This document shows positions 1 through 9,404 of a stretch of 13,016 nt of DNA, one piece after another. The stretch is taken from positions 1 to 13,016 of IMG/VR virus record IMGVR_UViG_3300033066_001079; one strand, 5' to 3'. The notes beneath the pieces are model-generated. The model saw nothing but the letters and a program-made list of their open reading frames with translations. It made no database searches and had not been told where the DNA came from. Each line of letters begins with the position of its first letter. The stretch's first letter is position 1. Both the position numbers and the translations under genes were made by a program. The DNA comes from a virus (Duplodnaviria; Heunggongvirae; Uroviricota; Caudoviricetes).

Positions 1-3000
1 TCTTCGCCCTTTGCCTTGCCGATTGCTCCCTCTAGCTGTTCGAGAACATTAAGAGGCAACTCAACGGTTATAGTGCTAGGAGCCATTGCTGCTCCGGGCG
101 CTCCGCCTGCCATTGGATCTCCGCCGCCAACGTCTCCGCCCATTGGGTCGGATGCTGGGTCTGCCGCAGGGTCAGCGAACGGATCAACGTCTCCGCCAAA
201 CTCGTCGCCGCCACCCATGCCCGGATGTTCTGGCGATGCTCCGCCGCCCATCTCAGGAGATGAAGCCTCAGGCGCTCCGCCTCCCAACTCGTCGCTTAGG
301 TGATCTTCAAACTGAGCATACTTTGCCTTGATTTGGTCGCAAACAAAGCATGCCTTCTTCATTGTAAGGCCTGTGCGTACAAAGTCTTCTACGCATTCAA
401 CCATTTGGTCTTCCTTAGCCCAAACAGACGCTACCTTGATAGCAATGTCATTAGAATAGACGCCAGCCGTAGAAAGCTTCTGGCATACGCAGTCGGCAAG
501 GTTCTTTCCCTCGCATGGACCGCTTAGAGCAAGAGCGTTCTCTCCGTACTTACGAGCAATCTTCATGCGGCAAGTTTCGATTGGGAACTTATCGCCAAAG
601 CCTGCCGTCTTCTTGAGTCCAGCAAGAACTGATTCATTTGCAGAAGCAGTCTTTACTGCGACAAACAATCCCTTATTCTTCATAGCAAGAATTGTCTTGC
701 CCTTATCTGCCAACTGCATTGCGTCGAATACGTCCTCGCTGAGGCCATGCGTCTTTAGAGCAGAAGCAAAAGCCTTCTTGGTGCGGTGACAGCCGGGGCA
801 TCCCAAGTTCGTTGGTCTAGCGTCGAAACGCCATTCCGCAAACATAGCTTGCTTACCAGCTTGCTTTACGCCTCGTAGATGAACTTCATAGTTCTTGCCC
901 GTATCGAGGCACAAGAACTTATTGTCAGCAATCTTCATGACTTCAGACGAGCCAGTGAAAGGACTTACGCCGCCCAAAGACCATGTAAGACCCTTGGCCT
1001 TGAAGTCTTCCGAAGCCTTCTTAACCATTTGAGAGTTCAACTGAACCATTGCAGCAACAGGAATGCTTTCCTGAGCTTGGCTTGGGTCAGGCAGAGCAAA
1101 GCCTTCGCCGCCCTCTTCTTCGCCCATGCCTTCGCCGCCAAGACCCTCTTCTGTATCTTCAGCGCCAGAGTCAAGGATGCCCGGAGCTTTGGTCCATTCG
1201 CCAATGATCTTCCAAGTTACTTCTGCACCGCAGTTGTTACACTTAGACTTTCCATCAAGAACGTCTACGTCAGTAGAACCGCACATTCCGCAGAGAGTAC
1301 CCGGTGGCTTTGGCTGCATATCGCTATCGTCGCCGCCCATTGGGTCTTCTTCGCCAGCGCCAAGGTCACCCGGCTGTCCGCCTAGGTTCTCGGCTGGTGG
1401 CATTCCGCCTGCGCCCATATCAGCGCCGGGCATGGTTGCTCCGGCTCCGCCTTGAGCGCCGCCGCCTCCCATACCGCCGCCCATTTGTCCGCCCATCATC
1501 TGAGCTTCCTTAACAAGATTTGCTCGATTTGTAGAACGAGCGGTCTTGTCTTGCGGCTTTGCGGTTGCAGTCTTGAACTGAGAAGTTACAGCAGAAGCAA
1601 AAGCCTTCTTCTCTTCGTCAGAACAGATTCGCTCTTCCTTGCATTCAACTTCAAAGATTCCGGCTTCCTTGTCGAGGTTTACGTTTGCAATAACAAATGG
1701 AACGTCAATGTTCTGCTTAGCAAAAGCAAGCAATGACTTCATAAACTCGCTCTTATTTGCAGGGTCAGCCGTTACGTCGTCCTTCAAGGTTCCGCAAAGC
1801 TTATAAAGTCCGTCTTCTGGACGGTCTAGCTCGGCAAACGCCTGACGGAACATAGAAGCCTTATCAACTACGACTTCGCCAGTATCTTCTCTGGAAGCAA
1901 TCTTAGTATGAGCGCTGCTTTCGGCAGACGCAAACGCCTTCTTGTCAGTAACGACAAACTGGATAGCGTCAACAAAGTCCTCTCCCTTGAGATAACCAAT
2001 GTTGTCAGCCATTGCAGATATGAAGGAGTCGATTGGCTTTAGATTATTAGAAATGGAAGCGCTCTTGGCGAAATAGTCGCGACGCTTGCGGCTTGCAACT
2101 CTTGCCTGAGTCTTGGTTGGGGCTGCATTTACCAAAGTAAGGTAAGAAGCCTTGATTGCAGACTGAGGAGAAGCGGTAATCTGACGAACAGCGGCGCTAA
2201 TCTCGGTTGGAGTTAGGCCGTAGTTGGCGATTGCGTCTGCTACAGCAGAAGAAGCTGCCTTTACGAGATCCTTAGCCGAAGAAGCCCAACGAGCCGAATC
2301 CGACTTCCCTTCTGGGGAAACCTTCTTCTGTCCATTAAGCTGATCCTGCGTAACAGTCTCAGGAGCGGTCCACTTATGAGAAGACTGCAAGCTTACAAGC
2401 TGTGCTTCGGTCGTCTTGTCGGTATAATCGGAACCCAAAGACGAAGAAACTCGACGGCTCATCTCGGTCCATTGAGCTTCGGTAATAACTTCTGGGTACT
2501 CGTTCCAACGAACAGCATGGTCGCTATCAATAGACTCAAGCTGAGCCTGAGTAATAACTTCCGGAGCAGCATCCTTGCGGAGCGCGTTATTGTCAGAAGT
2601 TGTATCGTTAACGTCCTTAAGTTCGCCCTTACCCTCTAGCTGAGCCTGAGTGGTAACGGTTGGAGCCTTGTCCTCTCTTGGATGAAGCGGACCAGCGTTT
2701 TCTAGCTGCTTCTGAGTGGTAACTTCCTGCTGAGCAGAACTACCCGCCGCTGTTTTGGTGGTGTTGTGAGACATAGTTACTCCTGACTCCTTTTGGTATT
2801 GACTTAGTATTGTCTTGGCTGCTTCCTGAGGATTGGAAGTTATGAGAGCCTTAAGCTCATCGCCAAATTCCTCAGCAGACGCCCAACTTACGAGCTTATT
2901 ATCTTTCCATTTCCCTACTACTGTTTCGTTATTTTCTGCACTAGCAACTGTTACTTTAAGATTACCTTCAGATACTTCAGCAACGTGTTCAGAATTAGCC

Positions 3001-4388
3001 ACTTCTACTCTCCTTCTGTCGAATAAATCTAAAGATAGTTGTAGCGCTGAACTTACGCGCTCCAATTGACTTGTCTTATTTCTTGCTTGCTTCAAGAATT
3101 CCTTCTTTAATTCTTCTGAAGCCCCTGTAAAAGTCGGTCGAGTAACGCTTCCTAGGCCGTCCAAGCTTGCCGAAGACGGCGGAGAACCCTTTCCAGATTG
3201 CGCCTCTGGCTGAGGTTGAGCCTGTCCTTGACCGCCTACCTGTTGAGGATTCATGACTTGCTGAGACTGTCCCGTAACAGGAGCAGTCATTATGTTTCCA
3301 AGAGCAATCTGATGCTCTGGCGGAGACGCAAGTTGAGCATATCCCATTTCTACAAGTTCGTCTGTCAAAGACTGAACCTTAGCAAGTTGTTCAACAAGAT
3401 CGCTTACATAATCAAGCTGAACTTGATTCTTTTGAGCCATCATAGAACGAGCAACATGCTCCATAAGATTCATAGCCTGCGTCAAAGCCTGAAGCTCCGA
3501 CTGTCCAGCCGTCTTCTCAAGAGAACCCTCATTCATTTTGCTAACCGAGTCATTCATTACGGAAGCAATCTTCTGAAGCTCAGCTATCTTTGTAGATACC
3601 TTAGTCTCAAGATCTGCTGTAAGAATTTCGCAAACAAGGCAAGAATGGCAAGCCGGATTGACAACGAAGCTGTCTTCAATAAACTTGATGTCATAGTTCC
3701 ACTCGTAAACACGAGCTTCCTTATGAATCATCTCTTTAGATTCTGATTTCTTTTTACCGTCTACAGGGCAAGGCTCTTCTGGCTTGCATGAACTGTCATG
3801 GAACTTACAATCGTATTTTCCGCTTAGTTTACGGTTCTTTCCATTCTTTATGTGAGTACAGAACTCGTCGGCAGTATGAGCCTTGTTATGGCAAATAGAG
3901 CAAACGGAGTGACCGACTTGCGCTCCCATCGAGGTGCCTGTAATGTAGCCCTCTTCAATACCTCTCGCCAAACGAGGGTAGGCGCTGCGATCAACCATGT
4001 TAATGCAGTAAATGCCCTTTGAAGGCTCGTCATACCAAGCATGAACAACTTTGCCACGAGCGTTTTCTACGTTATCATTTTGATGGTTTACAAAGACAGG
4101 AACGCCAACAAATGAGGCTGCTCCCTTCTTTAGCTCTTCAATAGAGAAGCAGTCGCCGTTGTCATTTACTTCATTGGCTTTGATAGCAAAAACCTTAACG
4201 AACAAGTTCTCAGGGTTCTTTTCAATAGCCGCAGAAAGATCGAAGCCGCCAAGGTCTACGTCCTTGGACTTGTCTATAGAAGCAACTTTTATGCGACTAG
4301 TGTTATAAAGGCTCCATGCCCAACTCTTAGGCAAATTAAGAGCCTCAATAGACATTTTCTGATCTGTATGAGCTTTCTTCTTGAACAT
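1..4388 (-). CDS. Prohead (maturation) protease fused to a long scaffold/core-like region; at least 1462 aa, runs off the left edge
   Basis: Not in the ORF track because it has no stop in the window. Manual translation from ATG 4388 (AGGAG at 4398-4402, 9-nt spacer; TAATG overlap with the upstream stop) is open to base 1 and begins MFKKKAHTDQKMSIEAL. It has N-D-N-G-D, FVNH (H102), GTSMG (S153) and IEDSFVVNPA (E238), matching the H / G-x-S-x-G / E-x-S-x-V-x-x-P-A pattern of HK97-type/assemblin-fold prohead proteases. The rest is helical or low-complexity with Cys motifs. Confidence 0.85.
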   Translation of the reverse strand, partial: MFKKKAHTDQKMSIEALNLPKSWAWSLYNTSRIKVASIDKSKDVDLGGFDLSAAIEKNPENLFVKVFAIKANEVNDNGDCFSIEELKKGAASFVGVPVFVNHQNDNVENARGKVVHAWYDEPSKGIYCINMVDRSAYPRLARGIEEGYITGTSMGAQVGHSVCSICHNKAHTADEFCTHIKNGKNRKLSGKYDCKFHDSSCKPEEPCPVDGKKKSESKEMIHKEARVYEWNYDIKFIEDSFVVNPACHSCLVCEILTADLETKVSTKIAELQKIASVMNDSVSKMNEGSLEKTAGQSELQALTQAMNLMEHVARSMMAQKNQVQLDYVSDLVEQLAKVQSLTDELVEMGYAQLASPPEHQIALGNIMTAPVTGQSQQVMNPQQVGGQGQAQPQPEAQSGKGSPPSSASLDGLGSVTRPTFTGASEELKKEFLKQARNKTSQLERVSSALQLSLDLFDRRRVEVANSEHVAEVSEGNLKVTVASAENNETVVGKWKDNKLVSWASAEEFGDELKALITSNPQEAAKTILSQYQKESGVTMSHNTTKTAAGSSAQQEVTTQKQLENAGPLHPREDKAPTVTTQAQLEGKGELKDVNDTTSDNNALRKDAAPEVITQAQLESIDSDHAVRWNEYPEVITEAQWTEMSRRVSSSLGSDYTDKTTEAQLVSLQSSHKWTAPETVTQDQLNGQKKVSPEGKSDSARWASSAKDLVKAASSAVADAIANYGLTPTEISAAVRQITASPQSAIKASYLTLVNAAPTKTQARVASRKRRDYFAKSASISNNLKPIDSFISAMADNIGYLKGEDFVDAIQFVVTDKKAFASAESSAHTKIASREDTGEVVVDKASMFRQAFAELDRPEDGLYKLCGTLKDDVTADPANKSEFMKSLLAFAKQNIDVPFVIANVNLDKEAGIFEVECKEERICSDEEKKAFASAVTSQFKTATAKPQDKTARSTNRANLVKEAQMMGGQMGGGMGGGGAQGGAGATMPGADMGAGGMPPAENLGGQPGDLGAGEEDPMGGDDSDMQPKPPGTLCGMCGSTDVDVLDGKSKCNNCGAEVTWKIIGEWTKAPGILDSGAEDTEEGLGGEGMGEEEGGEGFALPDPSQAQESIPVAAMVQLNSQMVKKASEDFKAKGLTWSLGGVSPFTGSSEVMKIADNKFLCLDTGKNYEVHLRGVKQAGKQAMFAEWRFDARPTNLGCPGCHRTKKAFASALKTHGLSEDVFDAMQLADKGKTILAMKNKGLFVAVKTASANESVLAGLKKTAGFGDKFPIETCRMKIARKYGENALALSGPCEGKNLADCVCQKLSTAGVYSNDIAIKVASVWAKEDQMVECVEDFVRTGLTMKKACFVCDQIKAKYAQFEDHLSDELGGGAPEASSPEMGGGASPEHPGMGGGDEFGGDVDPFADPAADPASDPMGGDVGGGDPMAGGAPGAAMAPSTITVELPLNVLEQLEGAIGKAKGE
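80..290 (-). repeat. Gly/Met/Asp/Pro low-complexity coding tract in the protease-scaffold ORF
   Basis: Translates LGGGAPEASSPEMGGGASPEHPGMGGGDEFGGDVDPFADPAADPASDPMGGDVGGGDPMAGGAPGAAM. aacgtctccgcc recurs at about 129 and 186. Confidence 0.75.
1330..1500 (-). repeat. Gly/Met-rich coding tract in the protease-scaffold ORF
   Basis: Translates QMMGGQMGGGMGGGGAQGGAGATMPGADMGAGGMPPAENLGGQPGDLGAGEEDPMGGDD, directly after KEA. Confidence 0.75.
2337..2726 (-). repeat. Six degenerate peptide repeats, consensus x-x-x-T-[QE]-[AKD]-Q-[LW]
   Basis: EVTTQKQL, TVTTQAQL, EVITQAQL, EVITEAQW, DKTTEAQL, ETVTQDQL, spaced 22, 33, 23, 24 and 20 codons. DNA copies tagctgcttctgagtggtaac (2703-2723) and tagctgagcctgagtggtaac (2637-2657) differ by one codon. 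Confidence 0.8.
2772..2791 (-). promoter_or_regulatory. Candidate internal ribosome-binding site and in-frame ATG (M539)
   Basis: Minus strand reads AGGAGtcAGGAGtaactATG: two AGGAG motifs, with spacers of 12 and 5 nt before an in-frame ATG at 2774. Confidence 0.5.
3000..3015 (-). promoter_or_regulatory. Candidate internal ribosome-binding site and in-frame GTG (V463)
   Basis: Minus strand reads AAGGAGagtagaaGTG (7-nt spacer), in frame with the protease ORF. The motif is built from consecutive AGA AGG AGA Arg codons. Confidence 0.5.
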
Positions 4389-6172
4389 TAAGTCAATCTC
4401 CTAATCAAACTCTTTGCAACAGCGGCCATATTAGCATTAGGTTCTTCTGGGGCATTTTGTACTTGCGGCTGCTGCGGAGCTTCATTGGCTTGCGGTACTG
4501 CTTCTGGTTTAGGCTGAAGCGGCACTTTTGCTGGAACTCCCTTTGCTTCTTCAAGAGCTTTCTGAGCTACGTCCAAGCTTCGAGCTTGAGCGTTGATACG
4601 AGGTATGTTTCCTCCCTTACCGGCTGCTACTTGTACCATCTTATCAACTGCTGATTGAGGATCGTCTGTTTCGTCTACAACTGTCCATTCGTCTAAGTAC
4701 GTCTTCTTATTTCCGCGAGTATCTTGGTAATACCTTTCATTCTGCACTCTACGAGACTCGCTTATGCTATTAGATACTACCACCCATCGCACATCTCTAT
4801 CGACAATAACATCCTCTCCTCCTCGGACAGGATTCTCTACTTTAGAAATAGATTTAGGATCAACAAACGGTCGAGCTACAGCTTTTCCTTCTCCAAGATT
4901 CTTTGCTCTAATGAACTTAGGTCCAACCATTAGAATATAGAAACCTTCAAAAGAAGTATGTACGTCTTCTTTGCCTTTGTCCGCTCCCGTCATATCTAAG
5001 AAGTTTCGCAACTGCTGTAGAGCCTGAGCAGAAACCGCCCATTCTAGCTGATTTTGTGGGTTTGGAGCATTCAAACGATTCTCGCTATCAGGACTCATGG
5101 TATAAACCAATCTAGTTCCCTTAACAAGACCGTCATAGTCTATTGCTTCATTCTTACTAGCAGGACGAACGATGTGATTTGTTCCCAAACGAGAAGGCTC
5201 AAGAATCGCAGCAATCTGTTGAGGATTCATATAGACATTCTCTCCGTCAGAGAGAGCGGCGCTTCCTCGTCCCTTAAATCCTTTACGCTGTCGCAAGAAC
5301 AAGCATCCATTCTCGTCGGCATAAATGCCAAAGATAAACTTAGCCTGACTTGGTTGCTGAGAAACTAGGCTGTGAGCCATTCCATTGTCAATATGAAAAG
5401 CTATGGGACCAGTAATGTCTGGCTCTGATTGCTCAGCAACATAGTCTTCAACAACATTTTGATGGCCCTTGGGTGGAACATAAACCACACCCTTACCCAA
5501 CATGAGTTGATTGCCTTTGAAAAACTGCCTCGTGTTCTGTGCAGCTTGACCGGCAAAAACTGGGATCTCGTCAAGAGAACGAATAATAGGTCTGAAGCCC
5601 TCTCCATATGGAGCAATAACTAGTGGCCCCTGTGGATATGAGGAGTTTCCGCCTGTATATGGCTTTATCTGCCTATTCATGTTTCCCCGCTGAGTCATGA
5701 CTTCAAAGCCGGGAATACCTTTATAAGCATATCCAAAGAGCGAAATCCAATACTTAGTGCCAGCGCTATGCGGCGTGTTGTTTGGAGGAAGCTGAATTCC
5801 AGTTTGTTGAACAAACTTAGCTGTTTCTGCTAGCTTACGAATATTTGCGGGAGCGTCTGGACTATTGAGGTATCTTAGAGTGTCGTCTGATACGGCTCGG
5901 TCTTCGGCATAAGCGACCCATAGCATTCCTGCATAGTCTTTCTTTTGCGCGGCATCCATTTTTCTGAACTCGCCATCAAACTCTTCTAGCTTCTTAGAAA
6001 TAGCTCTCTTAGGAGCGTCTGGAAGTTTTGCCAATCGCTGACCTATAGAGTTTCGATCAAAACGAACCCAATGAAGATCTCTCTTATTGAGTTGATTCTG
6101 ACCTTGAAGCATGCCCATGTCGGACTGCTTCAATAGTCTGTCAATGATAGTTTTGGCAGAAGTATACATCAT
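4388..6172 (-). CDS. Hypothetical protein, 594 aa (candidate minor head/internal protein by position)
   Basis: Long open frame coupled at both ends: ATGA overlap at 6169-6172 and TAATG overlap at 4386-4390. No family recognised. Has a P/Q/E/A-rich C-terminal tail. Confidence 0.8.
   Translation of the reverse strand: MMYTSAKTIIDRLLKQSDMGMLQGQNQLNKRDLHWVRFDRNSIGQRLAKLPDAPKRAISKKLEEFDGEFRKMDAAQKKDYAGMLWVAYAEDRAVSDDTLRYLNSPDAPANIRKLAETAKFVQQTGIQLPPNNTPHSAGTKYWISLFGYAYKGIPGFEVMTQRGNMNRQIKPYTGGNSSYPQGPLVIAPYGEGFRPIIRSLDEIPVFAGQAAQNTRQFFKGNQLMLGKGVVYVPPKGHQNVVEDYVAEQSEPDITGPIAFHIDNGMAHSLVSQQPSQAKFIFGIYADENGCLFLRQRKGFKGRGSAALSDGENVYMNPQQIAAILEPSRLGTNHIVRPASKNEAIDYDGLVKGTRLVYTMSPDSENRLNAPNPQNQLEWAVSAQALQQLRNFLDMTGADKGKEDVHTSFEGFYILMVGPKFIRAKNLGEGKAVARPFVDPKSISKVENPVRGGEDVIVDRDVRWVVVSNSISESRRVQNERYYQDTRGNKKTYLDEWTVVDETDDPQSAVDKMVQVAAGKGGNIPRINAQARSLDVAQKALEEAKGVPAKVPLQPKPEAVPQANEAPQQPQVQNAPEEPNANMAAVAKSLIRRLT
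4398..4402 (-). promoter_or_regulatory. Shine-Dalgarno site of the protease-scaffold gene
   Basis: AGGAG 9 nt before ATG 4388, embedded in the AGG AGA codons at the end of the upstream gene. Confidence 0.7.
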
Positions 6173-6612
6173 GCCTTTACATGCTCCGGGATATCCACTG
6201 ACTCTAACGCTTCACGATTATAAGGAACTTGCCCCTTAGGAATACGAATACCCCATCGCTGGCTGGCATAGACCAACGCTCCCTTGATAGTTGGAAAATA
6301 TTCTCCATATGGGCTATAAGTCTTAGTATCAGGATCTTTGGTAAACTCTTCCAAAGGAATCTTCTTGATGCCTGCAAAGAACATCTTACCAACATTATGC
6401 TGCACAGACGGACCAACAACTACATAGTATATTGAGTTGGTAGTATAATCATGGCCTTCCCATCGGTAATAAGAACCCGGTCCAAGTTCTTTGTCGAACT
6501 TTTCCTTCTGAGGAGCAGACCTCTCTCGGTACATCTCCTCCCACTTAATACCACGGTCTTTGATTCTCTTGCGACCGGCGACCTTAGCCAAGTTGTATAC
6601 TAGTTCGCTCAT
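6169..6612 (-). CDS. Hypothetical protein, 147 aa
   Basis: ATGA overlap with the portal stop and GGAG 10 nt upstream. Aromatic-rich, globular-looking sequence (YYRWEGHDY...YYVVVGP...YGEYFPT). No function assignable. Confidence 0.8.
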   Translation of the reverse strand: MSELVYNLAKVAGRKRIKDRGIKWEEMYRERSAPQKEKFDKELGPGSYYRWEGHDYTTNSIYYVVVGPSVQHNVGKMFFAGIKKIPLEEFTKDPDTKTYSPYGEYFPTIKGALVYASQRWGIRIPKGQVPYNREALESVDIPEHVKA

Positions 6613-8936
6613 CCTTCTTTTACTCCGTCCGGTATGATGGCACCCTTAGAAACGGTACATCCATCAAACGGACTGAAATGGGCTGTCCTATACTTCGCAT
6701 TTTCTGCTCCGTTGGCCTTCTTTGACAGAGCTTTCTTCTCTTCTGCGGCGTCAGAGACTTCCTTAGTAATGACTTGTTGGATCTTATCAAGATTTTCGCT
6801 AATCGCCATTTCGGTGAATCGAAGAACTCTCCAACCCAATCCAGCAAGAGTCATATCTCTTTCTTTGTCCTTCTGCTTATCTTCAACAGAAGAATGCCAT
6901 TTCTCTCCGTCTACCTCTATATCAACTCCAAGAGACGGAATAGCAAAATCCATAAGATAGAAATTCGAATCATTTGGAACTTGCTGCTTATACTGAGCAA
7001 AGAGTTGGAATGGAAGATTCATAGCAACTAGCGATTTATACATACGAGACTCTGGCCTTGTAAGTTGAATAGTGCTAGGACGAAGAGGCTGCATTGGCTC
7101 GTCAGCTTCCTTAGGCCCCTTGCCTTTTCTATAGATCTTCTGCTGACCTTGAGCAGCCGCTCCCATACCTCCGGGAGCCCCGCCGCCGCCCATGCCGCCA
7201 CCCATACCGCCGCCTGCCCCACCCATACCTCCGTCCATGCCTCCAGCGCCCGGCATTCCGCCTGCGCCGCCTCCCATGCCGCCAGTTGGGTCCATGCCGG
7301 GAGCGCCGCCTGCTCCTCCGGGAGCGCCGCCTCCGCCGCCTCCCATGCCACCGCCCATACCTCCACCGCCTGCTCCGCCTCCTTGACCGCCCTGCATAAG
7401 CTGACCATTCTGCATGGCATGAACTTGTTCTTCTCGAATCCTCTCGGTTTCAAGATCATAATCCAAGTCAAACTGCTCAAGAAGAGTTTGGGCCGAGATA
7501 AGACCGCTCTGCTGCATCTGTAGCAACATCTGAAGATTGTTAGTATTGTCTCGTAGACGCAGATCGTTCCACTTGATTCTAGGATACAAGTAGGTTGTTT
7601 CTTTGAACTCCTTAGTCTCTTCCTCATCAATGAAACCTTGCATCTTTGCAACAGGCAAAAAGATATTCTTCTCAATCCATTGCGCCAGTTCATTACGCCA
7701 AGACTCGATACGACGAATCATAACTTCTACACCAACCTGAGCAGAGTTATAGCCAGCCATTTCTCCGTTCAATAGAGTCTGGTTGAGCATAAGTCCGTCA
7801 AGGATTTCCTTACCGACAAACTCAAGCTCTTGATTGATGTTATGAATCTTACCGCTTGCGCCGTACCATTCATACTCAAAATTATTGTGCGTTACAATTG
7901 TAAGATTTGGATCGTTTGCAACAGCGCCCAACTGCTGGGACGCATCTGCAATTGCGTCTTCGTCTGCCGGTCGGTCGTCAGAACCAATCTTGACAACTCG
8001 AACAGGAAGAATCATTCTCTCGGCAACAATCCAGTTAGCCGTCATAAGCTTTGTTTTATAAGCCAAAACAGTGAACAAGCGACGGAGCAAAGACTCTCCA
8101 TATGTTCCGTAAGGAACGCCGCCATGCTTCATATGACTTGTAACTCTGTTCGATAGCAAGATTGGCTTCTTAGCCATAATCTGAACTTTGATATTCTCAG
8201 GAATCTGGTCGTACAGGAACTTAGGCTGCTTTGTCTGAATAATCTTCTGAAGCTCTTCGTCTGGTAGAAGAACAATCTGAGGCTCCTGCGAAATAGGAGT
8301 CTTCATTACCTCGATCCAGTCTGGATTCAGTACGGTAAGCCGTCCAATCGTTCCGTCAGGATGGTTACAAGGCTCTCCGCTCTCTTGGTCTATGCCGCTA
8401 CCTTTGCAATGAGGACAATCAATTTCCGTCATTACAAACACGTCGCCAAGCAAGAATCTCTGATGGCTGATCATTCTAAGCCAATACATAAGATCTAGCT
8501 TTTCAACCAATCGCTCGAAGAATCGCAGCGTACTCTTCTTCTTGCACTGAAGTTTCATTCCGTTGATAGGGAACTGCGAATAGAAATCTATACCTGCCGC
8601 TACCTTTGGTTCATTCTCATAGTAGTGCCTTGCCCATTGATAAACTTCTTTTCTCTTGCTTGCAATCTGCCAGTTTTGCGGCGTATGCAATGGAGAAAAG
8701 AACATAGGCTGAGTCATAATGACGTTTGCTCCCGAGCCAGCAAACTGAGCAGCCTTAGTTATGGGGAATCGCATATTTGTAGAACTGCAATAGCCTGCGT
8801 AGGCGTTTAGCTGACCCGGAGGCTTCATTCTAGGATTAAAGCCATCGTCTACTACTTGGCCCTTAATAGCGGAGATCTTAGACGCCGCTGTTTTATCAGG
8901 CAAGTTCATTCTAATCGGTTTGTTCTTATCAGACAT
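6609..8936 (-). CDS. Portal protein with Gly/Met linker and C-terminal DUF559/Vsr-like endonuclease domain, 775 aa
   Basis: aa about 64-505 resemble a tailed-phage portal (YYENEPKVAAGIDFYSQFP, LTVLNPDWIEV, HMKH...YGTYGESLLRRLF, LP-V-R-VVKIG, QSGLISAQTLLEQFDLDYDLETERIREE), and the gene lies upstream of the protease. aa about 625-727 match the DUF559/Vsr pattern: T-x-x-E-x-x-M-Y-x-x-L...Q...YLMDF(D663)...IEVDG(E674,D676)EKWH(H681)...D-x-x-RD-x-x-L-x-x-x-GWRVLRF. Confidence 0.8.
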   Translation of the reverse strand: MSDKNKPIRMNLPDKTAASKISAIKGQVVDDGFNPRMKPPGQLNAYAGYCSSTNMRFPITKAAQFAGSGANVIMTQPMFFSPLHTPQNWQIASKRKEVYQWARHYYENEPKVAAGIDFYSQFPINGMKLQCKKKSTLRFFERLVEKLDLMYWLRMISHQRFLLGDVFVMTEIDCPHCKGSGIDQESGEPCNHPDGTIGRLTVLNPDWIEVMKTPISQEPQIVLLPDEELQKIIQTKQPKFLYDQIPENIKVQIMAKKPILLSNRVTSHMKHGGVPYGTYGESLLRRLFTVLAYKTKLMTANWIVAERMILPVRVVKIGSDDRPADEDAIADASQQLGAVANDPNLTIVTHNNFEYEWYGASGKIHNINQELEFVGKEILDGLMLNQTLLNGEMAGYNSAQVGVEVMIRRIESWRNELAQWIEKNIFLPVAKMQGFIDEEETKEFKETTYLYPRIKWNDLRLRDNTNNLQMLLQMQQSGLISAQTLLEQFDLDYDLETERIREEQVHAMQNGQLMQGGQGGGAGGGGMGGGMGGGGGGAPGGAGGAPGMDPTGGMGGGAGGMPGAGGMDGGMGGAGGGMGGGMGGGGAPGGMGAAAQGQQKIYRKGKGPKEADEPMQPLRPSTIQLTRPESRMYKSLVAMNLPFQLFAQYKQQVPNDSNFYLMDFAIPSLGVDIEVDGEKWHSSVEDKQKDKERDMTLAGLGWRVLRFTEMAISENLDKIQQVITKEVSDAAEEKKALSKKANGAENAKYRTAHFSPFDGCTVSKGAIIPDGVKEG
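7161..7391 (-). repeat. Gly/Met low-complexity linker in the portal (aa 516-592)
   Basis: 77 codons, of which 50 are Gly and 10 are Met. A 15-nt direct repeat, ccgggagcgccgcct, occurs at 7297-7311 and 7318-7332. Confidence 0.85.
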
Positions 8937-8948
8937 ATATCACTTTCA

Positions 8949-9404
8949 TTATAACCCTAGATGATCTGCCGAATGGTCGCAGTTAGAAAGATGTCCTTCG
9001 TCAACAACTTGAGCGTCGTCGTCCGAAATCAATCTCTTCTTCTGGTTAATCGGCTTACGAGGCATTGGCATAGGAGCCATTGGCCTTGGAGCAGTCTTAG
9101 CCAATGGCATAACCGCTTGCGCCTGCATAGGTATGCCGGGCACAATCATCTTGTTAGTGGGAGTGTTGTTAAGTAGCGTTACTTGCTGCTGAATGCGAGG
9201 AGCCTCGCCTTCTGCGTCCGGCTTTCTTTGCTTAGGACAAGAAGACGTTGTAGCTACAGCAGTTGGATTTGGACAACTTTGGTTGTCGCATTTTACGGCG
9301 GTAGGAGGCAAGTCCTTACCACACGCAGGACAAACCTTTTCAAGGGCCAAAGGTTTGACTTCGTTTATTTTAGGGATCTCTACGCTTTCAGACTGAGCCG
9401 TTAC
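8949..9404 (-). CDS. Zn-ribbon-containing Pro/Gln-rich frame (151 codons), probably reached by -1 frameshift from the 9401-10648 gene
   Basis: The frame stays open from the A9 run (9405-9413) to TAA 8949: VTAQSESVEIPKINEVKPLALEKVCPACGKDLPPTAVKCDNQSC. The track's start at 9350 is a TTG with no Shine-Dalgarno motif. C-x2-C-x10-C-x4-C lies at 9273-9332. Confidence 0.65.
   Translation of the reverse strand, partial: VTAQSESVEIPKINEVKPLALEKVCPACGKDLPPTAVKCDNQSCPNPTAVATTSSCPKQRKPDAEGEAPRIQQQVTLLNNTPTNKMIVPGIPMQAQAVMPLAKTAPRPMAPMPMPRKPINQKKRLISDDDAQVVDEGHLSNCDHSADHLGL

What the first reader, a model, noticed from the sequence alone, without database searches (positions are those of the whole stretch)
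6609..7391. Portal protein fused through a 77-aa Gly/Met tether to an apparently intact DUF559/Vsr-like endonuclease
Seen: after the portal core ends at about aa 505, there is a Gly/Met linker and then a domain retaining D663, E674, D676 and H681 plus the RD...L...GWRVLRF tail. There is no stop, frameshift or intein junction between them. Established: portals are dodecamers whose C-terminal crown faces the capsid interior. Packaging cleavage is normally done by the large terminase. DUF559/Vsr folds include the EDxHD homing endonucleases (I-Bth0305I). Inference: up to 12 tethered nuclease domains would sit at the DNA entry/exit vertex. Possible roles are end trimming or nicking during packaging, DNA sensing, or protease release and ejection as an anti-host or anti-competitor effector. 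It could instead be a domesticated homing endonuclease. I know of no characterised portal-nuclease fusion, but cannot exclude database examples.
Basis: partly seen in the sequence, partly recalled or inferred. Interest (0 to 1): 0.85.

Follow-up and report, generated by a model that had tools for sequence, protein, structure and literature searches.

The report
Giant-phage portal with tethered nuclease
The DNA-entry (portal) protein of this uncultivated giant wastewater phage really does end in an intact-looking DNA-cutting domain on a long floppy tether, and a whole large clade of such phages shares it, so about twelve nucleases should sit inside every capsid for a purpose nobody has tested.

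Summary
Window 6609-8936 (-) is one 775-aa gene. It comprises a portal core (aa ~61-505), a ~95-aa Gly/Met/Ala linker and a DUF559/Vsr-type endonuclease domain (aa ~623-740).

It is not an assembly artefact. Independent contigs span the linker without indels. Every relative with a complete portal core at about 38% identity or more carries the same three-part layout, on contigs up to 515 kb. Less similar portals, including phage G gp14, have only a low-complexity tail.

The nuclease looks functional:
- D663, H681 and E629 are invariant in 221 domains. E674, D676 and D690 are kept in at least 217.
- dN/dS is about 0.09.
- The AlphaFold model matches I-Bth0305I, a DUF559 protein and Vsr.
- In 13 lineages an intein sits exactly inside the E-x-D-G motif.

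The domain co-diverges with the portal core (r = 0.82), so it is a fixed, old fusion and not a mobile homing endonuclease. The phage keeps a normal terminase nuclease region, so the portal nuclease is an extra one.

Its function is untested. My best guess (about 0.4) is a capsid-internal, tethered enzyme that nicks, trims or holds the phage's own DNA at the portal mouth. The main rival (about 0.3) is a protease-released, injected effector.

I found no paper describing the fusion. This scan has already found it on other genomes (e1-5336948, e1-5340081, e1-3451887).

The parts
6609..8936 (-). Whole gene: 775-aa portal-linker-nuclease protein (P0001) plus stop codon
   Evidence: Single open frame. 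Pfam and PHROG hits to portal and DUF559 lie in one polypeptide. Homologs with the same architecture.
8757..8936 (-). N-terminal ~60 aa, poorly conserved and of low model confidence; ends at the conserved P-I-T-K-x-A-Q-x-A-G motif (aa 58-67, just inside the core part)
   Evidence: AF2 pLDDT below 50 for aa 1-18 and 25-90. Q64 is invariant and P58/T60 nearly so in alignment A2. A K-x-A-[QS] motif occurs in this region in 118 of 208 homologs.
7422..8756 (-). Portal core (aa ~61-505: clip, stem, wing and crown)
   Evidence: phrog_16240 E 5e-41. Portal_Mu above cut-off. 30.5% identity to phage G gp14, which is virion-detected according to PMC12484599. AF2 model plus Foldseek: 114 hits at E<=1e-3, and the top 50 are all portal proteins.
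8352..8417 (-). Cys/His insertion in the portal core (C174, C177 ... C190, H192), a probable zinc knuckle
   Evidence: C174, C177 and C190 are nearly invariant and H192 is invariant in 70 aligned cores. Metal binding was not tested.
7140..7421 (-). Gly/Met/Ala/Pro low-complexity tether (aa ~506-599)
   Evidence: 52 Gly, 12 Ala and 12 Met in 98 aa. Homologs keep a 70-100-aa tract of the same composition but not the same sequence. GC rises to 0.60 here. Independent contigs span it.
7110..7139 (-). Conserved basic segment K-I-Y-R-K-G-K-G-P-K (aa 600-609) between tether and nuclease
   Evidence: G605 is invariant and K603 and K609 are kept in at least 80% of 121 homologs. The motif is unique in the 77-kb genome. 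A role as a DNA-binding arm is inference only.
6717..7070 (-). DUF559/Vsr-type (EDxHD-like) endonuclease domain, aa ~623-740; key residues E629, D663, E674, D676, W680, H681, D690, R693, D694, R706
   Evidence: Pfam PF04480 E 7e-10. Profile hits to 3r3p (2e-6) and 3hrl (3e-5). AF2 pLDDT 84.6. Foldseek: 3r3p TMt 0.75, 3hrl 0.77, PvuRts1I, Vsr. Residue conservation. dN/dS ~0.09.
6609..6716 (-). C-terminal tail (aa 741-775) with a predicted beta-hairpin, plus the stop codon
   Evidence: AF2 strands at model residues 152-160 and 163-170, pLDDT ~91. Less constrained, dN/dS ~0.23. Shorter in the distant subclade, only ~30-45 aa after the R-F motif. K-x-A-[QS] motifs after the nuclease core in 104 of 208 homologs.
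6169..6612 (-). Downstream 147-aa ORF whose ATG overlaps the portal stop (ATGA); tightly conserved neighbour, function unknown
   Evidence: 80-85% identical and directly abutting the portal in L003-L014, 52% in L015. No Pfam or PHROG hit. Not detectable next to a distant fused portal, L026. It is therefore not an obligate partner of the nuclease.

Best explanation
This is the portal gene of an uncultivated huge phage of the phage-G-related lineage, found in wastewater and activated-sludge samples. The contig is 77 kb, and relatives reach 490-515 kb.

Shown here:
- One polypeptide joins a portal core, a ~95-aa flexible Gly/Met tether and a DUF559/Vsr-fold endonuclease domain.
- The metal-binding Asp (D663), the general-base His (H681) and the surrounding acidic residues are all kept.
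- The fusion arose once, at the base of a large clade, on a portal that already had a low-complexity C-terminal tail. It has since been inherited vertically under purifying selection.

Inferred from established portal architecture:
- The C-terminus lies inside the capsid and the portal is a dodecamer. Every procapsid should therefore carry twelve nuclease domains within a few tens of nanometres of the inner mouth of the DNA channel.

Inferred mechanism, to which I commit:
- The domains stay tethered and act in cis on the phage's own DNA as it passes or ends at the portal crown.
- They nick, trim or clamp the incoming or terminal DNA. Examples are capturing or processing the first-packaged end, or introducing relaxing nicks during packaging of a half-megabase genome.
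- The conserved basic arm (aa 600-609) would help to hold DNA.
- This nuclease is additional to the terminase nuclease, not a replacement for it.
For: Real, single gene.

Portal identity.

Nuclease fold and family.

Conservation of catalytic residues in 221 domains: D663, H681 and E629 in 221/221, E674 in 219, D676 in 218, D690 in 217.

Purifying selection: dN/dS ~0.09 for the nuclease against ~0.03 for the core.

Intein evidence: an intein lies exactly between E674 and residue 675 in 13 homolog clusters. This is the kind of site inteins favour, namely conserved functional motifs.

Phyletic pattern:
- The fusion is present in all complete relatives at about 38% identity or more.
- It is absent from complete cores at 36% identity or less and from phage G gp14. 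Several of these still carry Gly-rich tails.
- Core and nuclease distances correlate (Pearson 0.82, 5253 pairs), with no pair that is far in the core and close in the domain.

Tether: its length and composition are conserved at 70-100 aa.

Terminase: TerL of the same genome keeps its C-terminal nuclease region (phrog_9 6e-14). The acidic motifs are visible by eye.

Weak evidence that the domain stays attached: the candidate protease motif K-x-A-[QS] is frequent at the N-terminus (118/208) and after the nuclease (104/208). It is not enriched between core and nuclease (35/208).

Tolerated geometry: T4 portals with C-terminal GFP fusions still function (PMC9958956).

Precedents for a second nuclease at the packaging vertex: T4 gp4 (PMC7824862).
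Against: - No biochemical, proteomic or structural data exist for any member.
- Nuclease activity, tethering in the mature virion and the substrate are all inferred.
- Twelve active nucleases beside the packaged genome need an unexplained safeguard, such as sequence, structure or modification specificity, metal limitation, or autoinhibition.
- Conserved catalytic residues are equally compatible with a released effector.
- The role of K-x-A-[QS] as a protease site is itself an untested idea from this scan.
- dS is saturated in most pairs, so the dN/dS values are rough.
- The distance correlation uses non-independent pairs.
Confidence: 0.4

Rival explanations
1. Packaged effector. Fusion to the portal is a way to load exactly twelve nuclease domains into each procapsid. 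The prohead protease, encoded two genes downstream as a giant protease-scaffold polyprotein, then cuts the tether or the basic segment. The free ~20-kDa nuclease is ejected with the DNA to attack host or competitor DNA. The phage genome would be protected by modification or by lack of target sites.
For: - A head-maturation protease domain lies at the start of the 1462-aa neighbour (phrog_18299 1e-8, phrog_2774 2e-30).
- That protein carries similar Gly/Met-rich linkers, so such tracts may be processing sites.
- Precedent: MuF/gp7-type portal-associated head proteins carry C-terminal toxin domains, more than half of them nucleases, and are proposed to be delivered with the DNA (PMC5576092).
- The catalytic residues are invariant.
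Against: - No conserved candidate cleavage motif lies between core and nuclease, and the basic motif is unique in the genome.
- The tether length is conserved, and a similar tail exists in relatives without a nuclease, which suggests the tail has its own role.
- No immunity-like neighbour is conserved across the clade. orf147 is absent next to the distant fused portal L026.
- No MuF domain was detected.
- No separate DNA-targeting domain is present.
Confidence: 0.3
2. Non-cleaving DNA clamp or assembly module. The nuclease fold is used only to bind DNA, for example gripping the 5'-phosphate end or a nick through its metal site. This would anchor the first-packaged end at the portal or sense head filling. 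Alternatively, together with the low-complexity tail, it helps to nucleate the scaffold core.
For: - A metal-site end clamp would keep the same residues conserved.
- The basic arm is conserved.
- Low-complexity tails of similar composition occur in other head-core proteins of the window and in the nuclease-free phage G portal.
- SPP1 gp7 is a portal-bound protein inside the capsid (PMC5576092); that it binds DNA is my recollection, not shown in the passages read.
Against: Complete retention of the general-base His and of all acidic residues over deep divergence is more typical of active enzymes. So is an intein sitting in the catalytic motif. No known DUF559/Vsr member is documented as a pure binder, as far as I know.
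Confidence: 0.17
3. Selfish element. The domain is an EDxHD-type homing endonuclease that has lodged at the 3' end of an essential gene. It promotes its own spread, or that of this portal allele, in co-infections.
For: - The best solved-structure match is the homing endonuclease I-Bth0305I.
- The clade's portal and TerL genes are rich in inteins and LAGLIDADG endonucleases.
Against: - The domain is present in every complete member of a deep clade, not sporadically.
- It co-diverges with the portal core, with no sign of transfer between lineages.
- It is under purifying selection.
- It lacks NUMOD or other DNA-recognition modules and has no intron or intein boundaries.
- Close stand-alone copies were found only on contigs of 2.5 kb or less, probably fragments.
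Confidence: 0.06
4. Artefact. A chimeric assembly across the repetitive linker joined a portal gene to an unrelated nuclease gene.
For: The linker is GC-rich and weakly repetitive. De Bruijn contigs of some runs break inside it, and run X7 shows alternative joins there.
Against: - A 4.7-kb contig of another run spans it without indels.
- Hundreds of independent assemblies from JGI, ENA, NCBI, Tara and Logan show the same fusion.
- The two parts co-diverge.
Confidence: 0.01

Closest known systems
Portal protein gp14 of Bacillus/Lysinibacillus phage G (Donellivirus gee); Pfam Portal_Mu PF06074; phrog_16240
   Same: Homologous portal core: 30.5% identity over aa 70-504, E 1e-61. It sits in the head module. 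gp14 also has a long low-complexity C-terminal tail. gp14 is detected in virions (PMC12484599).
   Different: gp14 is 649 aa and ends in a Gly/Pro-rich tail with no folded domain and no DUF559. The window's protein adds a complete nuclease domain and a Cys/His insertion in the core.
I-Bth0305I catalytic domain (PDB 3r3p), prototype of the EDxHD homing endonucleases; DUF559 protein NGO0050 (PDB 3hrl)
   Same: Best sequence-profile and fold matches: 3r3p E 2e-6, TMt 0.75, 28% identity; 3hrl TMt 0.77. It shares the Vsr-like core and the Asp, Glu, His and Asp catalytic set. I-Bth0305I is Mg-dependent, dimeric and cuts both strands, leaving 2-nt 5' overhangs (PMC3239194).
   Different: I-Bth0305I is intron-encoded, mobile and carries N-terminal NUMOD DNA-binding modules. 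Here the domain is fused to a structural protein, fixed in a clade, and has no recognisable targeting module. Dimerisation could not be assessed.
E. coli Vsr very-short-patch-repair endonuclease (PDB 1vsr, 1cw0)
   Same: Same fold (Foldseek probability 0.99-1.0). By the alignment and Vsr numbering from my own knowledge, D663 corresponds to Vsr D51, H681 to H69 and W680 to the intercalating W68.
   Different: Only 19-22% identity. The sequence match is not significant (E 0.27). There are no cysteines at the positions of the Vsr structural zinc site. No evidence for T:G mismatch specificity.
T4 gp4 head-completion nuclease
   Same: A second nuclease, besides TerL, working at the packaging vertex. 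gp4 is a virion-associated REase-fold DNase needed for morphogenesis (PMC7824862).
   Different: It is a separate protein that acts on the outside of the portal and neck. It belongs to a different fold family (TnsA-like REase). It is not covalently fused to the portal and is not inside the capsid.
MuF/SPP1 gp7-type portal-associated head proteins with C-terminal toxin (often nuclease) domains
   Same: An enzymatic, often nuclease, domain is carried into the capsid interior by attachment to the portal (PMC5576092).
   Different: No MuF domain is present here. The attachment is covalent to the portal itself, which fixes the stoichiometry at 12. No conserved immunity gene. These are lytic-looking huge phages, not temperate siphophages.

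Membership tests
Phage portal protein (Portal_Mu PF06074 / phage G gp14-like) | Sequence match to a portal family model above the curated threshold | tested here: met
   PF06074 29.2 bits against a cut-off of 23.9. phrog_16240 E 5e-41, with four further portal PHROGs.
Phage portal protein (Portal_Mu PF06074 / phage G gp14-like) | Portal fold (clip-stem-wing-crown) | tested here: met
   AF2 of aa 1-512, pLDDT 66.4. Foldseek PDB gave 114 hits at E<=1e-3, and the top 50 are all portal proteins: T4, lambda, HK97, G20c, P7-1 and others.
Phage portal protein (Portal_Mu PF06074 / phage G gp14-like) | Location in a head-morphogenesis module with protease/scaffold, and a terminase in the genome | tested here: met
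   A protease-domain polyprotein lies two genes downstream. TerL lies at G000:C1 about 22.9-25.7 kb.
Phage portal protein (Portal_Mu PF06074 / phage G gp14-like) | Dodecameric ring at one capsid vertex | not testable with these tools
   No virions or structures exist for this clade. Inferred from homology.
DUF559 / Vsr-like endonuclease (PF04480) | Sequence match above the curated threshold | tested here: met
   39.1 bits against a cut-off of 20.6, aa 648-727. The family profile hits 3r3p and 3hrl.
DUF559 / Vsr-like endonuclease (PF04480) | Vsr-type alpha/beta nuclease fold | tested here: met
   AF2 pLDDT 84.6, pTM 0.77. Foldseek: 3r3p, 3hrl, 4oq2, 1cw0 and 1vsr at probability 0.99-1.0.
DUF559 / Vsr-like endonuclease (PF04480) | Catalytic Asp (Vsr D51 equivalent), general-base His (H69 equivalent) and the accompanying acidic residues | tested here: met
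   D663, E674, D676, H681 and D690 are present. They are kept in 217-221 of 221 homologous domains.
DUF559 / Vsr-like endonuclease (PF04480) | Metal-dependent DNA nicking or cleavage | not testable with these tools
   Needs an enzyme assay.
Vsr sensu stricto (T:G mismatch repair nickase) | Significant sequence similarity to Vsr, its structural zinc site, and a repair context | tested here: not met
   Vsr match E 0.27. No Cys cluster in aa 623-740. The domain is fused to a structural protein. The JGI label 'very-short-patch-repair endonuclease' is an automatic family name only.
EDxHD homing endonucleases (I-Bth0305I type) | Vsr-like catalytic domain with the E, D, H, D residue set | tested here: met
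   Best PDB match by profile (2e-6) and by fold (TMt 0.75, 28% identity).
EDxHD homing endonucleases (I-Bth0305I type) | Encoded in an intron or intein, or as a free-standing mobile ORF, with NUMOD-type DNA-binding modules | tested here: not met
   In-frame C-terminal domain with no intein boundaries. No NUMOD or other DNA-binding family by Pfam.
EDxHD homing endonucleases (I-Bth0305I type) | Sporadic, horizontally mobile distribution | tested here: not met
   Present in all complete members of the clade. Domain and core distances correlate at r 0.82 with no discordant close pairs.
MuF-type phage polymorphic toxins | MuF (PF04233/PF06152) head domain followed by a toxin domain and an immunity gene | tested here: not met
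   No MuF hit. The downstream orf147 is not conserved across the fused clade.

The most novel reading that the evidence does not exclude
Huge phages of this clade use a second, capsid-internal nuclease ring. Twelve portal-tethered Vsr-type enzymes would process the genome from inside the head, for example by introducing site- or structure-specific nicks, or by trimming and clamping the leading end. This would make packaging and ejection of about 0.5 Mb of DNA topologically feasible. It would be a new functional component of the tailed-phage packaging machine, and the virion DNA would carry its signature as defined nicks or processed ends.
Probability: 0.2. Interest if true: 0.85.

Novelty: new variant of a known kind. 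Interest (0 to 1): 0.7.

Why it matters
Portals are among the best-studied viral machines. They are regarded as passive or sensor-like DNA conduits, and all known packaging cleavage is assigned to the terminase. Here an enzyme domain is covalently built into the capsid-interior end of the portal. It is conserved with an intact active site across hundreds of huge-phage lineages from marine, groundwater and wastewater samples. That implies an unrecognised step in genome packaging, retention, ejection or host takeover that is specific to very large phages.

It is directly testable, because the ~180-aa domain is small and folds confidently. It offers a natural example of stoichiometric cargo loading into capsids through the portal C-terminus. 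It also corrects a misleading automatic annotation ('very-short-patch-repair endonuclease') on hundreds of portal genes.

Tried and rejected
1. Portal nuclease as a replacement for a lost terminase nuclease: rejected.
- Pfam Terminase_6N, Terminase_6C and TerL_ATPase, phrog_2 and phage G gp1 found nothing in the window's genome or in four large relatives.
- phrog_9 then found a ~1000-aa TerL in all five.
- It is split by an intein in the Walker A motif. Its C-terminal nuclease region matches terminase PHROGs.
- The earlier blanks were a sensitivity problem, not absence.

2. Homodimer prediction of the nuclease domain (collected): no verdict. It is not used as evidence either way.

3. orf147 as an immunity or inhibitor partner: not supported as a general feature. 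It is strongly conserved in the near subclade but undetectable beside the distant fused portal in L026. The Atlas feature search gave only sub-threshold leads.

4. Shared cleavage motif: the basic K-I-x-K-R-G-K motif occurs only in the portal within the 77-kb genome. The 'WY tag' of earlier notes is not in the portal.

5. Internal translation start for a separate nuclease product: Met615 has a possible AAGGAAG 11 nt upstream. However, Met615 and Met632 are not conserved, so this was rejected.

6. Stand-alone close homologs of the domain: only three, on contigs of 2.5 kb or less, probably truncated fusion genes. The word-based search is of limited sensitivity.

7. PDB sequence search with the whole protein mostly returned Gly-linker noise.

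8. RNA-library contigs from wastewater metatranscriptomes hold the gene. Contigs cannot show transcription, so no expression claim is made.

9. PDB sequence search with the TerL C-terminal part: no hit.


Full report
**The gene and its parts**

The window carries a minus-strand head-morphogenesis operon. The ORF at 6609-8936 (-) translates without interruption into 775 residues.

- Pfam finds Portal_Mu (29.2 bits, cut-off 23.9) and DUF559 (aa 648-727, 39.1 bits, cut-off 20.6) in the same polypeptide.
- PHROGs gives portal family phrog_16240 at E 5e-41 over aa 60-482.
- Between the two lies a Gly-rich tract from about aa 505 to 600, with 52 Gly, 12 Ala and 12 Met in a 98-aa window.

**Is the fusion real?**

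Logan contigs from three studies were laid on 6400-9100.

- One 4734-nt contig (run X1) covers 6400-8712 with seven substitutions and no gap.
- Contigs of X3 and X7 cover the linker in the same register.
- No indels were reported. Some de Bruijn contigs break inside the repeat, as expected.

More decisively, the 120 best 90%-identity clusters in a 5.8-billion-protein search all carry PF04480 together with the portal. They come from JGI, ENA, NCBI, Tara and Logan assemblies, on contigs up to 515 kb. All have a 70-100-aa tract of the same composition. Fourteen IMG/VR loci, on contigs up to 494 kb, show the same gene. A chimeric assembly is excluded.

**How far does it extend?**

An exhaustive phmmer search of 1.84 billion 50%-identity representatives gave 2989 hits at E<=1e-3 and 342 at E<=1e-30. 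I built HMMs of the portal core and of the C-terminal domain and scanned all retrieved proteins.

- Every representative with a complete core at about 38% identity or more has the nuclease domain.
- Complete cores at 36% identity or less lack it: P0252, P0254, P0255, P0258, P0264, P0266 and P0268.
- Phage G gp14 (30.5% identity) also lacks it. It ends in a ~130-aa Gly/Pro-rich tail.

So a low-complexity tail predates the nuclease, and the nuclease was added once at the base of a large clade. Short stand-alone close relatives of the domain were found only on contigs of 2.5 kb or less, probably truncated fusion genes.

**Is the N-terminal part a portal?**

An AF2 model of aa 1-512 (70-sequence alignment, pLDDT 66.4) returned 114 PDB matches at E<=1e-3. 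The top 50 are all portal proteins, including T4, lambda, HK97, G20c and phiCD508. Phage G gp14 has been detected in virions by proteomics and cryo-EM according to PMC12484599. In T4 the clip is outside, and the stem, wing and crown are inside the capsid (PMC9958956). The model's last helices (aa 465-510) are the crown. The tether therefore starts inside the head.

**Is the C-terminal part a functional nuclease?**

- Fold. The AF2 model of aa 598-775 is confident (pLDDT 84.6, pTM 0.77). It has an alpha-beta-beta-beta-alpha-beta-alpha core plus a C-terminal hairpin.
- Foldseek matches. These are I-Bth0305I (3r3p, TMt 0.75, 28% identity), the DUF559 protein NGO0050 (3hrl, TMt 0.77), PvuRts1I/AbaSI and Vsr.
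- Profile search. The family profile hits 3r3p at 2e-6 and 3hrl at 3e-5.
- Residue conservation in 221 unsplit homologous domains. D663, H681 and E629 are invariant. E674 is kept in 219, D676 in 218, D690 in 217, and G701, W702 and R706 in at least 218.
- Active-site equivalence. By the alignment and Vsr numbering from my own knowledge, D663 corresponds to the Mg-binding D51, H681 to the general base H69 and W680 to the intercalating W68. This is inference.
- Selection. Where dS is measurable, dN/dS is about 0.09 for the nuclease and 0.03 for the core. Saturation makes these values rough.
- Intein evidence. In 13 homolog clusters an intein with a LAGLIDADG endonuclease sits exactly between E674 and the next residue of the E-x-D-G motif. 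Inteins typically occupy conserved functional motifs, so this is independent circumstantial support.

**Mobile or fixed?**

For 103 intein-free full-length proteins, pairwise distances of core and nuclease correlate (Pearson 0.82, Spearman 0.76; 5253 non-independent pairs). No pair is far in the core but close in the domain. The domain has no NUMOD or other targeting module. These points, with the universal presence in the clade, argue against an active homing endonuclease.

**Does it replace the terminase nuclease?**

No. Several terminase models failed at first. phrog_9 then found a ~1000-aa TerL in the window's genome (G000:C1 about 22.9-25.7 kb) and in four large relatives. It is interrupted by an intein in the Walker A motif. 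Its C-terminal region matches terminase PHROGs (6e-14), and the three acidic nuclease motifs are visible by eye (inference).

**Tethered or released?**

This could not be settled.

- The candidate protease motif K-x-A-[QS] was proposed by other first-stage notes. It is about five- to six-fold enriched at the portal N-terminus (118/208) and after the nuclease (104/208), but not between core and nuclease (35/208).
- The basic motif at aa 600-609 is conserved and unique in the genome.
- The neighbour orf147 is 80-85% conserved and its start overlaps the portal stop. It is absent beside a distant fused portal, so it is not a general immunity partner.
- The protease-scaffold polyprotein carries similar Gly/Met tracts, which keeps the cleavage model alive.
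- A homodimer prediction gave no verdict.

**Comparison with what is known**

- The portal core is a member of the phage G/Portal_Mu portal group.
- The C-terminal domain is a member of DUF559. It works like the EDxHD/Vsr nucleases, but it is not Vsr proper and not a homing endonuclease by context.
- Functional analogues are T4 gp4 (PMC7824862) and MuF-toxin fusions (PMC5576092). T4 also tolerates engineered C-terminal GFP on the portal (PMC9958956).
- Four full-text searches found no description of a portal-DUF559/Vsr fusion.
- This scan has already reported the same fusion on other genomes with the same conclusions. My tests agree with those reports independently.

**Verdict**

This is a real, ancient and conserved portal-tether-nuclease fusion in a large clade of huge phages. 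I class it as a new variant of a known kind. The mechanism is open. My best estimate is a tethered, capsid-internal DNA-processing or DNA-holding enzyme (0.4), followed by a protease-released injected effector (0.3).

Noticed in passing
homologs P0068, P0086, P0116, P0121, P0126, P0135, P0139, P0144, P0149, P0161, P0167, P0171, P0187 (equivalent to window aa 674/675, nt ~6912-6914): An intein of ~360-480 aa with a LAGLIDADG endonuclease is inserted exactly inside the E-x-D-G catalytic motif of the portal's nuclease domain, with Cys as the +1 residue. This occurs in 13 homolog clusters.
   Followed up: partly
homologs (e.g. P0171 3003 aa, P0166 2602 aa, P0161 2238 aa): Portal genes of this clade are an intein hot spot. 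Many representatives are 1100-3000 aa, with the portal core split into up to 5-6 matched stretches.
   Followed up: partly
G000:C1 ~22907-25687 (-), locus L023:373-3153 (outside the window): The large terminase carries an intein with a LAGLIDADG domain inside the Walker A motif (G-R-R | intein | S-G-K). It is so divergent that Pfam terminase models, phrog_2 and phage G TerL all miss it. Only phrog_9 and phrog_2699 detect it.
   Followed up: partly
window 6169-6612 (-): A 147-aa ORF whose start overlaps the portal stop. It is 80-85% identical across relatives, as conserved as the portal core and far more so than the flanking 594-aa and 415-aa genes. No family hit. Absent beside a distant fused portal (L026).
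   Followed up: partly
window 8352-8417 (-), portal aa 174-195: A C-x-x-C ... C-x-H insertion in the portal core, nearly invariant in 70 relatives. Probably a zinc knuckle, which is unusual for portals.
   Followed up: no
window 3-4388 (-): An ORF of at least 1462 aa with an N-terminal prohead-protease-like domain (phrog_2774, phrog_18299), followed by more than 1200 aa. This part includes Gly/Met-rich tracts like the portal tether and several Cys clusters. It is a probable protease-scaffold polyprotein and runs off the window.
   Followed up: no
portal aa 58-67 (window ~8736-8765) and aa 739-751 (window ~6684-6722): K-x-A-[QS]-type motifs are enriched at the portal N-terminus (P-I-T-K-x-A-Q, with Q64 invariant) and just after the nuclease core in homologs. 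This fits the scan's idea of a prohead-protease cleavage code, which remains untested.
   Followed up: partly
L016:10001-13330: In one 187-kb IMG/VR relative the portal gene is broken into several frames and holds a LAGLIDADG-like ORF. The cause is either assembly indels or an intron/intein-disrupted copy.
   Followed up: no
window 6400-9100; runs X2-X5, X7-X8: Near-identical sequence occurs in wastewater metatranscriptome libraries and activated-sludge metagenomes from several studies. This points to a wastewater or activated-sludge habitat. Most strain differences are spaced in multiples of 3 nt, which would fit third-codon positions (not checked).
   Followed up: partly
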